A stretch of DNA of 64,000 nt, from the NCBI RefSeq assembly GCF_044324785.1, contig NZ_CP172127.1; one strand, given 5' to 3'. The position numbers are program-made. Of the stretch, positions 43,961 to 46,900 are shown piece by piece. Every line of letters begins with the position of its first letter. Positions within the stretch are counted from its first letter, which is position 1. This DNA is from Escherichia coli (GTDB lineage: Bacteria; Pseudomonadota; Gammaproteobacteria; Enterobacterales; Enterobacteriaceae).

Positions 43961-46900
43961 TGAGTGATGAAACTGATGTTTGCATCGGACATTCATGGGT
44001 CGTTACCGGCGACGGAACGTGTTCTGGAGTTGTTTGCCCAAAGCGGTGCCCAATGGCTGGTGATCCTTGGCGACGTGTTGAATCACGGCCCGCGTAATGC
44101 TTTACCGGAGGGTTACGCGCCAGCCAAAGTCGCTGAACGGCTTAATGAAGTGGCACATAAGGTTATCGCTGTGCGCGGCAACTGCGACAGCGAAGTGGAT
44201 CAAATGCTTTTGCATTTCCCGATAACCGCGCCGTGGCAACAGGTATTACTGGAAAAACAACGTCTGTTTTTGACGCATGGTCATCTTTTTGGCCCGGAAA
44301 ATCTGCCTGCTTTAAACCAGAACGATGTGCTGGTTTACGGTCATACCCATCTGCCTGTGGCAGAACAGCGGGGGGAGATTTTCCACTTTAACCCCGGCTC
44401 GGTGAGTATTCCGAAAGGCGGTAATCCGGCGAGTTATGGCATGCTGGATAATGACGTACTTAGTGTAATCGCACTCAATGATCAAAGTATCATTGCGCAG
44501 GTCGCGATTAATCCGTAATTTACCCACAACTCAAAATGCGCCGTAAGAGCGCCAGAAAAAGAAGGTTTCCTGATAATGGAACAGCGTCGTTTGGCAAGTA
44601 CTGAATGGGTGGATATTGTCAATGAAGAGAACGAAGTCATTGCACAAGCCAGCCGGGAACAAATGCGGGCACAGTGTCTGCGTCATCGTGCAACTTACAT
44701 CGTCGTGCATGATGGCATGGGCAAAATTCTGGTCCAGCGTCGTACCGAGACAAAAGACTTTTTACCCGGCATGTTAGATGCGACCGCAGGCGGTGTAGTC
44801 CAGGCCGATGAGCAACTGCTGGAATCCGCGCGTCGCGAAGCGGAAGAAGAGTTGGGCATTGCCGGCGTCCCCTTTGCCGAGCACGGGCAGTTCTATTTCG
44901 AAGATAAAAATTGCCGAGTCTGGGGCGCGTTGTTCAGTTGCGTCTCTCACGGTCCCTTCGCCCTACAGGAAGATGAAGTCAGTGAAGTTTGCTGGCTGAC
45001 GCCGGAAGAAATCACCGCACGCTGCGATGAGTTCACTCCAGACTCGCTGAAAGCGCTGGCGTTGTGGATGAAGCGCAATGCCAAAAATGAAGCCGTAGAG
45101 ACTGAAACGGCAGAATGAAAAAAGAGCCGCAATTGCGGCTCTTAACATTTTTAGTGGTAGCCCATCAACTGAGCGCCGATCACTACGACGCTGGACATAA
45201 TAAACAGCAGTCCAAGCAGGGTCGCGCCCACCTTCAGCCAGTTACGGAAGTCCACCCGGCACACACCGAGCGTCGCCATTAACGAAGCTGAGGTTGGGTA
45301 AATGATGTGACTGAAGCCATCACCAAACTGGAACGCCAGCACGGTAACCTGACGGTTAACACCGACCAGATCGCCAAGCGGTGCCAGTAACGGCATGGTT
45401 AACGCCGCCTGACCAGAACCAGACGTCACGAAGAAATTAAATACCGCCTGGAAGAGCAACATAAACCAGGCCGCGACCGCGTTGTCCAGACCGCTAATGG
45501 CATTGGCAATGCTGTTGAGGATGGTATTTAACACGCTGGCATCACCCGCTTCACCATTACCGACCAGCAGCAAAATCCCTTTGGCGAAACCCACCAGCAG
45601 GGCAGGGGCGATCATCATTCGCGCCCCTTCGGTAAAGGATGAAGCCATGGTATTAACCGTCATGCCGTTAAGGCGGAAAACAACGCCGATGATGCCAATC
45701 ACCAGACCCATGGTGAAGAACTGGCTGGCAATTTCAGGAATAAACCAGGCATTAACGATCACGCCCCAAATCACCCAGACCATTACGGCGGTCAGGACAA
45801 TTAATACCAGCCAGTCACCAAAGGTAAACGGACGTTGTTCAACATCCGCCTGCTTTTCACGAAAGAAGCGGTCGGACTCATGCACGCGTGACAGAAGAGG
45901 ATTCTTTTTCACACGTGAGGCGTACACCATGGTAAAGATCAGGCCAATCAGAGTGGCGATAACCCACACCACGATGCGCAACCCGGAGCCAGAAAGCACC
46001 GGAACGCCGGCAATCCCCTGAGCAACGACCACACAAAACGGGTTCATCCACGAACTGGCAAAACCGATTTGCGTGGCGATATAGGTCACCAGGACGGTGG
46101 TAATACTGTCATAGCCCAGCCGGACCATTAGCGGTGCGATGATAATGGCAAAGGCGACGGCCTCTTCTCCCATACCAAATACCGCGCCGCCAAGTGAAAA
46201 CAGAATAAAGAGCGCAGGAATAAAGAGAATTTCATTCCCGCGGGTATGGCGAATAAGCGCCAGGATACCGTTATCAATGGTTCCTGTACGCATCACAATG
46301 CCAAACGCGCCGCCAATCACCAGCATAAACATGATGATGCCAACGGCTGTCCCGTATTTCGATCCTGAGGTTAACCCTTCAAACGGGAAGTTCATCAGGC
46401 CCGGGCGTTCATCGCCCGTCGTGAACAGCTGTACGCGGTGATACTCTGGTTCGCCTGCTTCGTTAGTCAGAATGCGAAATGAGTGTGGATCTACGACTTT
46501 GCGTGTTTTTGTTTGACCATCAACCTGATACTGCACTTCCTGACTGTCAAACATGCCCACCGGAACTACCCAGGTGGCAAGACTGGTTAAAATAGCAACA
46601 AAAAAGATAATCACCAACGTATCGGGCATTGCCCATCTTCTGGTTGGTTTGGATTCAGTGATTGCGGACATAGCGCAAATATTCCCTTGCACAAAACAAA
46701 GTGGTAAGTATGCAAAGTGAGATGGCGCAATTCATTGATGCAGCGCAGTTAAGCAAGATAATCAGAAAGGATTAATGCAAATTAATAGAATAAAAAACCG
46801 GAAATAGTCACTATTTCCGGTTCCGATATCCGCAGCGCAAAGCTGCGGATGATGACGAGATTACTGCTGCTGTGCAGACTGAATCGCAGTCAGCGCGATG

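What the first reader, a model, noticed from the sequence alone, without database searches (positions are those of the whole stretch)
45151..46860. yfcC, an uncharacterized transporter, bracketed by strong terminators next to pta-ackA
yfcC encodes a large polytopic membrane protein insulated by a bidirectional terminator (45121-45150) and the pta terminator (46793-46822), leaving a 189-bp promoter region of its own. Its position next to the acetate switch genes suggests a possible role in carboxylate transport.
Basis: inference. Interest (0 to 1): 0.2.

Follow-up and report, generated by a model that had tools for sequence, protein, structure and literature searches.

The report
yfcC: anaerobic transporter, probably for beta-aspartyl dipeptides
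This is the already annotated E. coli gene yfcC, a separately transcribed, oxygen-regulated membrane transporter whose relatives in other bacteria sit next to enzymes that split beta-aspartyl dipeptides, so it more likely imports such peptides than acetate-type acids.

Summary
Window 45151-46671 (minus strand) encodes a protein 100% identical to E. coli K-12 YfcC (b2298). It is flanked by a shared yfcD/yfcC hairpin terminator (45122-45143) and the pta terminator (46794-46824), and the intergenic region is 189 bp.

The gene has its own published FNR-activated promoter. I place the FNR site at 46735-46748, exactly 36 nt upstream of a conserved -10 (46707-46712).

The carboxylate idea is poorly supported:
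- pta adjacency is confined to Escherichia, Salmonella and Citrobacter (0 of 74 other species).
- YfcC shows no BLAST-level similarity to DcuC.
- In 41 of 74 other species the orthologue lies beside a beta-aspartyl peptidase gene (IadA), usually within 150 nt. Several loci add cyanophycinase and TonB receptors.
- Vibrionaceae carry an AstE/AspA-type deacylase in that position.

The tested arginine/ornithine exchanger type (ArcE) is only 31% identical and falls below the YfcC equivalog cut-off.

A confident AlphaFold model matches elevator-type IT-superfamily transporters.

Best reading: an FNR-controlled (and ArgR-bound) importer of beta-aspartyl dipeptides such as beta-Asp-Arg. This is inferred, not shown.

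The gene is known, so overall interest is modest. The substrate hypothesis is directly testable.

The parts
45151..46671 (-). yfcC coding sequence (506 aa plus stop). It encodes an IT-superfamily secondary transporter.
45122..45143 (.). Bidirectional intrinsic terminator hairpin shared by the convergent genes yfcD (+) and yfcC (-).
   Evidence: 9-bp stem with 6 GC pairs and T runs on both strands. Folding energy -21.3 and -19.9 kcal/mol, z -4.8 and -3.3.
46700..46700 (-). Predicted yfcC transcription start (inferred, about 29 nt before the ATG).
   Evidence: It lies 7 nt downstream of the conserved -10. The published sigma70 ChIP peak at 2,415,077 (U00096.2) maps about 26 bp upstream of the ATG, using the K-12 coordinates and a 1,978-bp version offset taken from memory.
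46707..46712 (-). -10 hexamer CATACT of the yfcC promoter.
   Evidence: The block CATACTTA is invariant in E. coli, Salmonella, C. portucalensis and C. sedlakii.
46735..46748 (-). FNR site CTGCGCTGCATCAA in the class II position (centre -41.5).
   Evidence: It starts exactly 36 nt upstream of the -10 start and is identical in Salmonella. It is the same site published as CTTAACTGCGCTGCATCAATGAAT, centre 2,415,030.5 (PMC1802558). An FNR ChIP-seq peak and FNR-activated status are reported in PMC3688515.
46764..46802 (.). Two ARG-box-like 18-mers (46764-46781 and 46785-46802) separated by 3 bp. Possible ArgR operator; weak evidence.
   Evidence: They match 11 and 12 of 16 consensus positions. Window-wide frequency of scores >=11 is 0.4% and of >=12 is 0.07%. 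yfcC is listed in the binding-site ArgR regulon (PMC13401006). The pair is not conserved in position: Salmonella and Citrobacter have a 13-14/16 box at about ATG-64 instead.
46794..46824 (-). pta intrinsic terminator hairpin followed by a T run.
   Evidence: 14 pairs followed by TTTTTTATT. Seen in the fold.
46828..46850 (-). Additional 9-bp hairpin immediately after the pta stop codon.
   Evidence: Fold of 46780-46865 on the minus strand: the two tandem hairpins give -33.5 kcal/mol, z -6.2.
46183..46316 (-). 11-bp direct repeat TTGGCGGCGCG (46316-46306 and 46193-46183), 123 bp apart inside yfcC. It explains the natural in-frame 41-aa deletion alleles.
   Evidence: Repeat located. 465-aa alleles lacking residues 122-162 occur in E. 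coli and Shigella.
46735..46762 (+). Promoter-like site on the opposite strand (TTGATG-16-GATAAT), back to back with the yfcC promoter. Function unknown.
   Evidence: Consensus scan, 9 of 12 matches. The Salmonella sRNA STnc3730 lies antisense between yfcC and pta, but that sRNA is only about 65% conserved in E. coli.

Best explanation
yfcC is a single-gene transcription unit. RNA polymerase starts at about 46700 from a class II FNR-dependent promoter (FNR site 46735-46748, -10 at 46707-46712). It is therefore switched on without oxygen, in parallel with ackA-pta but independently of it. ArgR also binds the region. Transcription ends at the hairpin shared with yfcD.

The product is an elevator-type secondary transporter of the Ion Transporter superfamily (TC 2.A.118, the YfcC equivalog).

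Its most likely job is uptake of beta-aspartyl (isoaspartyl) dipeptides, such as the cyanophycin-derived beta-Asp-Arg and beta-Asp-Lys. These would then be split in the cytoplasm by the unlinked isoaspartyl dipeptidases IadA and IaaA to give aspartate plus an amino acid.

Shown: the gene, the terminators, the promoter elements, FNR binding and activation (literature), the fold class, and the gene neighbourhoods of orthologues. Inferred: the substrate, the direction of transport, and the partnership with IadA in E. coli.
For: Anatomy and regulation:
- Gene, terminators and promoter elements.
- FNR ChIP and the site sequence: PMC1802558.
- FNR-activated; sigma70 occupancy 46.8 aerobic to 1174.9 anaerobic; aerobic/anaerobic mRNA ratio 0.176: PMC3688515.
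- ArgR regulon member whose expression follows the Fnr iModulon: PMC13401006.

Fold:
- AlphaFold pLDDT 90.7.

Substrate inference from 74 species outside Escherichia and Citrobacter with 42-66% identical homologues:
- 41 have an IadA homologue on the same strand. Thirty of the 31 downstream copies lie -4 to 148 nt away, and 8 of the 10 upstream copies lie within 100 nt.
- 9 of 9 tested are TIGR01975 beta-aspartyl-peptidase equivalogs, 441-566 bits against a cut-off of 331.
- Cyanophycinase (TIGR02069) scores above its cut-off in four such loci, and weaker S51 hits occur in five more.
- TonB receptors are adjacent in 19 loci.
- This matches the published 'cyanophycin utilization locus' of cyanophycinase, iadA and a transporter (PMC10206079).

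Placement of E. coli YfcC among these:
- The IadA-linked transporters pass the same NCBIfam equivalog as E. coli YfcC (650-786 bits against 500). The ADI-linked, M20-linked and S51-linked ones do not (295-390 bits).
- In an NJ tree the Enterobacterales/Vibrio/Shewanella clade is nested between IadA-linked clades.
- YfcC keeps 89% of 133 columns conserved in the IadA-linked set and 21 of 27 clade-specific positions.

Other support:
- E. coli yjiH-yjiG-iadA is also anaerobically induced (ratios 0.024, 0.042, 0.29).
- ArgR control here and a lysine riboswitch on the C. difficile homologue (PMC11477304) both fit a substrate that yields a basic amino acid.
Against: - No transport experiment exists for YfcC or for any IadA-linked orthologue in the literature I could search.
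- E. coli yfcC itself has no hydrolase neighbour.
- E. coli iadA already has its own putative membrane partners (yjiG, yjiH).
- The closest non-enteric relatives lack IadA. Vibrionaceae (61-66% identical) carry an AstE/AspA-type deacylase whose nearest solved relatives are N-acetyl-diaminobutyrate deacetylase, not the cyanophycin dipeptide hydrolase CphZ. Shewanella (62-66%) has no hydrolase neighbour. Specificity may therefore have drifted in this clade.
- The NJ tree has no support values.
- The only biochemically characterised family member, S. pneumoniae ArcE, exchanges free arginine, ornithine and citrulline (PMC5300872).
- The ARG-box match in E. coli is weak and not positionally conserved.
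- Tn-seq shows no fitness role in LB, MOPS or EZ media. This says nothing about substrate, but it gives no phenotype to build on.
Confidence: 0.45

Rival explanations
1. YfcC is a basic amino acid exchanger like ArcE. It would take up free arginine (or lysine or citrulline) in exchange for ornithine or another product, as its RefSeq name 'putative basic amino acid antiporter' implies.
For: - Same TC family as S. pneumoniae ArcE, a demonstrated electroneutral Arg/Orn/citrulline exchanger (PMC5300872).
- A YfcC-family gene sits inside arcA-arcC-argF-X-argR on E. coli IncF plasmids and in ST131-B0.
- yfcC is in the ArgR binding-site regulon.
- It is induced anaerobically, when arginine fermentation would matter.
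Against: - The ADI-linked protein is only 31% identical and scores 295 bits against the YfcC equivalog cut-off of 500.
- It lies on the far side of the longest internal branch of the tree.
- None of 74 loci with 42-66% identical homologues contains arcA, arcC or an OTC gene.
- No ADI genes lie near yfcC in the window.
- That K-12 has no arginine deiminase is from my own knowledge.
Confidence: 0.2
2. YfcC imports some other small amide-linked amino-acid derivative, not specifically beta-aspartyl. Candidates are N-acyl basic amino acids or ordinary dipeptides. It would work like AbgT with AbgAB, and the substrate would be cleaved by a cytoplasmic hydrolase encoded elsewhere.
For: - Across the wider family the partner enzyme varies: AstE/AspA-type deacylase in all 7 Vibrionaceae loci plus V. 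parahaemolyticus.
- M20 peptidases follow the Biomaibacter and Oscillospiraceae homologues, and three upstream neighbours are M20.
- An M20D amidohydrolase accompanies the C. difficile gene.
- The second-best structural match is the AbgT-family protein YdaH.
Against: Within the equivalog clade that contains E. coli YfcC, the dominant partner by far is IadA (41 of 74), and the M20-linked members fall below the equivalog cut-off. This rival overlaps with the best explanation and differs only in substrate detail.
Confidence: 0.2
3. One reading: YfcC carries a carboxylate (acetate, a C4-dicarboxylate or another fermentation acid) and is functionally tied to the neighbouring pta-ackA acetate switch.
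For: - The Pfam family is named DcuC, 'C4-dicarboxylate anaerobic carrier'.
- There is a weak sub-threshold hit to the short-chain fatty acid transporter family (18.2 bits against 27).
- The best structural matches are the DASS di/tricarboxylate transporters.
- yfcC, ackA and pta are all FNR-activated and anaerobically induced.
- ackA-pta-yfcC order is kept in Escherichia, Salmonella and Citrobacter.
- A 2014 metabolomics paper on yfcC exists (reference seen). From memory it reported altered central-carbon metabolites, but I could not read it.
Against: - No BLASTP similarity to DcuC (E 0.15).
- YfcC does not hit the DcuC NCBIfam models, and DcuC does not hit the YfcC model.
- pta is adjacent in 0 of 74 other species and ackA in 1 of 74.
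- Superficieibacter, with a 90% identical gene, has no pta nearby.
- yfcC has its own promoter and is separated from pta by two hairpins.
- Fold similarity to DASS is at the superfamily level (10-12% identity) and is shared with AbgT, ArsB and TRAP proteins, which carry unrelated substrates.
Confidence: 0.07

Closest known systems
ArcE of Streptococcus pneumoniae (TC 2.A.118 'ArcD family', IT superfamily), together with the ADI-cluster YfcC-family genes on E. coli IncF plasmids
   Same: Same Pfam family (PF03606) and the same transporter family. Alignable over the full length (31% identity, E 5e-71). Linked to arginine through ArgR (the plasmid cluster ends in argR, and ArgR is reported at chromosomal yfcC).
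   Different: Below the YfcC equivalog cut-off (295 against 500 bits). Sits inside arcA-arcC-argF, whereas yfcC and its 42-99% identical relatives never do. Lacks about 24 residues of the beta-hairpin insert after the first helix. ArcE is shown to exchange free Arg, Orn and citrulline, whereas YfcC is untested.
IadA-linked YfcC orthologues in 'cyanophycin utilization' type loci (cyanophycinase, iadA, transporter; PMC10206079 citing Ben Hania 2017)
   Same: Same NCBIfam equivalog (650-786 bits) and 42-54% identity. YfcC keeps 89% of their conserved columns.
   Different: E. coli yfcC is not next to iadA or cyanophycinase. It is monocistronic under FNR, next to pta. I could not read Ben Hania 2017, so I do not know whether the transporter described there belongs to this family.
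AbgT family (E. coli AbgT with AbgA/AbgB; structures YdaH 4r0c and MtrF)
   Different: Only 15% identity over the aligned part. A different Pfam family (PF03806), which appears only as a weak secondary hit on some homologues.
DcuC and DcuD anaerobic C4-dicarboxylate carriers of E. coli
   Same: Same Pfam family name (PF03606). Both are anaerobically induced (dcuC ratio 0.05, yfcC ratio 0.18).
   Different: No pairwise similarity (E 0.15) and separate NCBIfam models with no cross hits. The genomic partners of YfcC relatives are peptidases, not fumarate or succinate enzymes.
DASS transporters (LaINDY 6wu1, VcINDY 4f35)
   Different: 10-11% identity. This is superfamily-level resemblance only and says nothing about substrate.

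Membership tests
Pfam PF03606 (DcuC, 'C4-dicarboxylate anaerobic carrier') | Profile score above the gathering threshold over the whole domain. | tested here: met
   537.6 bits against 23.1; residues 15-501 match profile positions 1-460 of 461.
DcuC/DcuD C4-dicarboxylate carrier subfamily (TIGR00771, NF007937) | Match to the DcuC subfamily or equivalog models, or pairwise similarity to E. coli DcuC. | tested here: not met
   No DcuC model appears among the YfcC hits at E <= 0.01. DcuC hits its own models at 656-890 bits and not NF008611. BLASTP of YfcC against DcuC gives E 0.15.
NCBIfam NF008611 (YfcC equivalog) | Score above the curated cut-off of 500 bits. | tested here: met
   839.6 bits. 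The protein is 100% identical to K-12 b2298.
ArcE-type arginine/ornithine exchangers (TC 2.A.118, characterised members) | Gene located in an arginine deiminase (arcA, arcB/argF, arcC) cluster. | tested here: not met
   Neighbours in the window are yfcD and pta. No arcA, arcC or OTC gene occurs in any of the 74 related loci. Compare plasmid pJIE186-2, where the gene is inside such a cluster.
ArcE-type arginine/ornithine exchangers (TC 2.A.118, characterised members) | Close sequence relationship to an ADI-linked member. | tested here: inconclusive
   Homologous but distant: 31% identity. The ADI-linked protein fails the YfcC equivalog (295 bits) and is an outgroup in the tree.
ArcE-type arginine/ornithine exchangers (TC 2.A.118, characterised members) | Electroneutral, energy-independent Arg/Orn(/citrulline) exchange. 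| not testable with these tools
   Needs transport assays like those in PMC5300872.
Ion Transporter (IT) superfamily, elevator-type fold | Three-dimensional similarity to solved IT-superfamily transporters over most of the chain. | tested here: met
Proposed beta-aspartyl-dipeptide importer group (IadA-linked YfcC orthologues; not a curated family) | Gene adjacent to and co-oriented with iadA (TIGR01975). | tested here: not met
   Not so in E. coli, where iadA lies elsewhere as b4328. It holds in 41 of 74 related species.
Proposed beta-aspartyl-dipeptide importer group (IadA-linked YfcC orthologues; not a curated family) | Shares the group's conserved and clade-specific residues and falls within its phylogenetic span. 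| tested here: met
   89% of 133 conserved columns and 21 of 27 signature positions are retained. YfcC is nested between IadA-linked clades in an NJ tree without support values. It passes the same equivalog.
Proposed beta-aspartyl-dipeptide importer group (IadA-linked YfcC orthologues; not a curated family) | Transport of beta-Asp-X dipeptides. | not testable with these tools
   No experiment was found for any member in the searchable literature.
Class II FNR-activated promoter | FNR site centred near -41.5 relative to the start, FNR occupancy in vivo, and FNR-dependent expression. | tested here: met
   The site starts 36 nt upstream of the conserved -10. Only the ATCAA half-site is strong: 7 of 10 positions match the consensus. 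Occupancy and dependence come from the literature. The transcription start is predicted, not mapped.
Rho-independent (intrinsic) terminators | GC-rich hairpin followed by a U run directly downstream of a stop codon. | tested here: met
   Actual termination efficiency was not measured.

The most novel reading that the evidence does not exclude
The YfcC equivalog, including E. coli YfcC, is the missing secondary importer for beta-aspartyl dipeptides. These include the cyanophycin breakdown products beta-Asp-Arg and beta-Asp-Lys and isoaspartyl dipeptides from damaged protein. It would be a widespread substrate class within TC 2.A.118, distinct from the ArcE exchangers that gave the family its database name. 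In E. coli it would let anaerobic gut cells scavenge such dipeptides under FNR and ArgR control and feed them to IadA and IaaA.
Probability: 0.4. Interest if true: 0.55.

Novelty: already known. Interest (0 to 1): 0.33.

Why it matters
The locus itself is textbook K-12: the gene, its terminators and its FNR site are already in the literature, so the finding as written is ordinary.

What is worth keeping is the correction of two misleading labels. The Pfam name suggests C4-dicarboxylates, and the RefSeq name suggests a basic amino acid antiporter. Gene neighbourhoods of the true orthologues instead point to beta-aspartyl dipeptides.

If that is right, three things follow:
- One of E. coli's remaining y-genes gets a function.
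- The transporter in cyanophycin-scavenging loci is identified.
- It would explain how gut bacteria without cyanophycinase could share in cyanophycin or isoaspartyl-peptide nitrogen.

It can be tested with simple growth and uptake assays.

Tried and rejected
- **Rfam on 44000-51000.** Only a sub-threshold Leu_leader hit at 45119-45237 (25.6 bits against 50). This is the terminator hairpin with its T run, not a leader.
- **PDB sequence search with YfcC.** No hit at E <= 1, so I needed a predicted model and a fold search.
- **The best FNR-like palindrome, TTAATGCAAATTAA (46772-46785, 8 of 10).** It is not conserved in Salmonella, and the conserved site 46735-46748 is the published one. I rejected it as the main FNR site. 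It overlaps the ARG-box-like pair.
- **The 94-sequence alignment.** Too diverse for the genome scan, so I repeated the scan with 23 sequences.
- **Whether the Vibrionaceae AstE/AspA neighbour is the cyanophycin dipeptide hydrolase CphZ.** Its nearest solved relatives are unnamed desuccinylase/aspartoacylase proteins and N-acetyl-diaminobutyrate deacetylase (E 1e-17 to 1e-18). One 'succinylglutamate desuccinylase' entry scores only E 2e-4. The identification is not supported.
- **Cluster names for ten distant representatives.** Uninformative.
- **Salmonella sRNA STnc3730 as an explanation for the + strand promoter-like site.** The sRNA is only about 65% conserved in E. coli. Left open.
- **Ben Hania 2017, which defines the cyanophycin utilization locus.** Not held. 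A search for cyanophycinase, isoaspartyl and C4-dicarboxylate together found nothing.
- **Greedy ORF calling.** It picks the long antisense shadow ORF in pta, so I gave both overlapping ORFs to the Pfam scans and confirmed neighbours by tblastn.
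Full report
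**What is in the sequence**

The window around 41-51 kb is the E. coli chromosome segment yfcH, folX, yfcG | yfcF, yfcE, yfcD > < yfcC < pta < ackA | yfbV. A 2.2-kb probe finds it in 5424 of 5426 complete E. coli genomes, with a best identity of 99.6%.

yfcC lies on the minus strand. The open frame reaches a GTG at 46692. The ATG at 46671 is the annotated start and the point at which Salmonella and Citrobacter sequences begin to align. It gives a 506-aa protein identical to K-12 b2298, 'putative transporter YfcC'.

**The terminators**

The hairpin at 45122-45143 lies between the convergent stops of yfcD (45118) and yfcC (45151). It has T runs on both strands and folds far better than shuffled sequence (z -4.8 and -3.3).

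The pta terminator is the 14-pair hairpin 46794-46824 followed by a T run. Together the two give -33.5 kcal/mol, z -6.2.

**The promoter and its regulation**

A three-genus alignment of the intergenic region shows two conserved blocks. One is CATACTTA (-10 hexamer at 46712-46707). The other is TTGCTTAACTGCGCTGCATCAATGAAT, which is identical in E. coli and Salmonella.

The 14-mer CTGCGCTGCATCAA (46748-46735) begins exactly 36 nt upstream of the -10 in E. coli, Salmonella and C. portucalensis. That puts its centre at -41.5, the class II FNR position.

This is the site published by Grainger et al. 2007, CTTAACTGCGCTGCATCAATGAAT, centre 2,415,030.5, at an FNR ChIP-chip target scored as FNR-regulated (PMC1802558).

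Myers et al. 2013 (PMC3688515) report the following:
- yfcC is in their category of operons with an FNR ChIP-seq peak and FNR-dependent expression, and it is classed as 'activated'.
- Its sigma70 peak rises from 46.8 aerobically to 1174.9 anaerobically.
- The aerobic/anaerobic mRNA ratio is 0.176, beside 0.110 for ackA and 0.099 for pta.

So yfcC is co-regulated with the acetate genes, but from its own promoter behind two hairpins.

A 2026 analysis lists yfcC in the binding-site ArgR regulon with expression dominated by the Fnr iModulon (PMC13401006). I find a weak tandem ARG-box-like pair with the canonical 3-bp spacer at 46764-46802 (11 and 12 of 16 positions). Salmonella and Citrobacter instead have a better single box (13-14 of 16) at about ATG-64. 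This element is only suggestive.

**The protein**

- Pfam places it in PF03606 'DcuC' (537.6 bits).
- No PDB sequence is similar.
- An AlphaFold model built on 94 diverse homologues is confident (pLDDT 90.7, pTM 0.88).

The mechanism class is therefore an elevator-type secondary transporter. A beta-hairpin insert follows the first helix. Substrate cannot be read from this level of similarity.

**Testing the carboxylate idea**

- E. coli DcuC and YfcC have no pairwise similarity (E 0.15), and their NCBIfam models do not cross-hit. The Pfam name carries little weight.
- The order ackA-pta-yfcC is kept in Salmonella, C. sedlakii and C. portucalensis.
- It is not kept in V. parahaemolyticus, Pragia or Shewanella.
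- A scan of one genome per species returned 80 loci. pta was found only in the Escherichia and Citrobacter loci, in 0 of the 74 others. ackA appeared in 1 of 74. Superficieibacter, whose gene is 90% identical, has no pta within 6 kb.

The adjacency is local synteny, not a conserved functional link.

**What the orthologues sit next to**

I scanned the flanking ORFs of the 74 loci against Pfam in bulk.
- Downstream neighbours: 28 Amidohydro_1/3, 6 AstE/AspA and 4 TonB receptors.
- Upstream neighbours: 15 TonB receptors, 9 Amidohydro and 3 M20 peptidases.
- Nine of nine amidohydrolases tested are TIGR01975 beta-aspartyl-peptidase (IadA) equivalogs, at 441-566 bits against a cut-off of 331.
- By tblastn, 41 of 74 loci have IadA on the same strand. 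Thirty of the 31 downstream copies lie -4 to 148 nt away, and 8 of the 10 upstream copies lie within 100 nt.
- These loci span Bacillaceae, Lachnospiraceae and other Clostridia, Enterococcus, Peptoniphilus and many Alteromonadales-type Gammaproteobacteria.
- Cyanophycinase (TIGR02069) scores above its cut-off in four loci, for example Microbulbifer with cyanophycinase, TonB receptor, transporter, IadA and cyanophycinase in order. Weaker S51 hits occur in five more.
- All seven Vibrionaceae loci, and V. parahaemolyticus, have an AstE/AspA-type deacylase 100 bp downstream. Its nearest solved relatives are N-acetyl-diaminobutyrate deacetylases.
- More distant family members (32-38% identity) are followed by M20 peptidases or preceded by cyanophycinase.

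Sharon and Schmeing describe 'cyanophycin utilization loci' made of cyanophycinase, iadA and a transporter. They also show that IadA is specific for beta-aspartyl dipeptides but indifferent to the second residue (PMC10206079).

**Where the arginine/ornithine label comes from**

The characterised member of TC 2.A.118 is S. pneumoniae ArcE, an Arg/Orn/citrulline exchanger encoded in the arc cluster (PMC5300872).

E. coli has such a gene too, but on IncF plasmids (about 240 records), inside arcA-arcC-argF-X-argR. It also occurs in the ST131-B0 accessory genome.

That protein is 31% identical to chromosomal YfcC and scores 295 bits on NF008611, below the cut-off. The IadA-linked transporters score 650-786 and the Vibrio one 847.

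In a neighbour-joining tree the ADI-, M20- and S51-linked proteins are outgroups. The Enterobacterales/Vibrio/Shewanella clade is nested between IadA-linked clades (no support values).

YfcC keeps 89% of the 133 columns that are at least 90% conserved in the IadA-linked set, against 56-67% for the outgroups. It also keeps 21 of 27 clade-specific positions.

**Synthesis**

The best-supported reading is an FNR-activated, ArgR-touched, monocistronic gene for an elevator-type importer whose ancestral and most common partner is the beta-aspartyl dipeptidase. The likely substrates are beta-aspartyl dipeptides such as beta-Asp-Arg.

Three further observations fit, though none is proof:
- The unlinked E. 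coli yjiH-yjiG-iadA operon is also strongly anaerobically induced (ratios 0.024, 0.042, 0.29).
- ArgR binding is reported at yfcC.
- The C. difficile homologue, paired with an M20D amidohydrolase, lies behind a lysine riboswitch (PMC11477304).

Weaknesses:
- No transport data exist.
- E. coli yfcC has no hydrolase neighbour.
- Its nearest non-enteric relatives (Vibrio, Shewanella) are not IadA-linked.
- Tn-seq shows that the gene is dispensable in standard media.

I put the substrate hypothesis at about 0.4-0.45, an ArcE-like basic amino acid exchanger at 0.2, another small amide conjugate at 0.2, and a carboxylate at under 0.1.

**Verdict**

The feature is real and already known as a gene, and its regulation by FNR is published. 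The functional guess is not supported by comparative evidence. The useful product of this check is a specific, cheaply testable substrate hypothesis and the recognition that both database names for the protein are probably misleading.

Noticed in passing
window 46735-46762 (+): A sigma70-like site (TTGATG, 16 nt, GATAAT) lies back to back with the yfcC promoter and points into the pta terminator hairpins. In Salmonella an sRNA, STnc3730, is annotated antisense between yfcC and pta with SPI2-like expression, but it is only about 65% conserved in E. coli.
   Followed up: partly
window 46183-46316 (-), inside yfcC: Several E. coli and Shigella flexneri protein clusters carry a 465-aa YfcC lacking residues 122-162. 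The deletion is bounded by an 11-bp direct repeat, TTGGCGGCGCG, 123 bp apart. It is a slippage-prone, probably inactivating in-frame allele that removes about two helices. Its frequency in the species was not measured.
   Followed up: partly
L092 (E. coli plasmid pJIE186-2, NC_020271.1) 2716-7958: About 240 E. coli plasmids carry an arginine deiminase cluster, arcA-arcC-argF-[YfcC family protein]-argR. The transporter is an ArcE-type paralogue only 31% identical to chromosomal YfcC. The same gene set is reported as specific to ST131-B0.
   Followed up: partly
L002 6569-11521, L004 7577-12875, L013 7564-10731: Salmonella and C. sedlakii carry a roughly 5-kb island between yfcC and yfcD (PTS EIIA/EIIB/EIIC-GAT, split transketolase, LacI-type regulator). 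It is absent from this E. coli window. E. albertii and Superficieibacter have ORFs of matching size and position but were not annotated.
   Followed up: no
L018 (Superficieibacter electus): The yfcC orthologue (90% identity) has yfcD downstream but no pta or ackA within 6 kb. The pta-yfcC junction is therefore broken even within Enterobacteriaceae.
   Followed up: no
window 46849-49077 (+): A 742-aa ORF runs antisense across the whole of pta and is longer than pta itself. It is a shadow ORF with a low-complexity, Arg/Gly/Val-rich translation, and it misled simple ORF-based neighbour calling.
   Followed up: no
window 63536-63578 (+): The only Rfam hit above threshold in the window is the nuoG RNA motif (50.3 bits against 33). 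No tRNA genes occur in the 64 kb.
   Followed up: no
window up to about 40016 (+): The histidine/arginine ABC importer gene hisP ends about 5 kb from yfcC. From my own knowledge it is part of the hisJQMP-argT cluster, which I did not check in the window. That system is, also from my own knowledge, the homologue of P. aeruginosa AotJQMP, which was shown to be required for growth on beta-Asp-Arg (PMC9974463). It is a competing route for the proposed YfcC substrate.
   Followed up: no
K-12 yjiH-yjiG-iadA (not in the window): In the Myers 2013 data the isoaspartyl dipeptidase operon is strongly anaerobically induced (aerobic/anaerobic ratios 0.024, 0.042 and 0.29), like yfcC.
   Followed up: partly
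YfcC residues about 38-95 (window about 46387-46560, -): The AlphaFold model shows a beta-hairpin extramembrane insert after the first helix (strands 43-50 and 53-60). The ArcE-type paralogue lacks about 24 of these residues. It may be a clade-specific lid or gating element.
   Followed up: no
L009 (Pragia fontium) 4449-9879: Here the yfcC orthologue sits between a nicotinamide phosphoribosyltransferase gene and NadM-Nudix/NrtR-type genes. This is an NAD-salvage context unlike any other locus seen.
   Followed up: no
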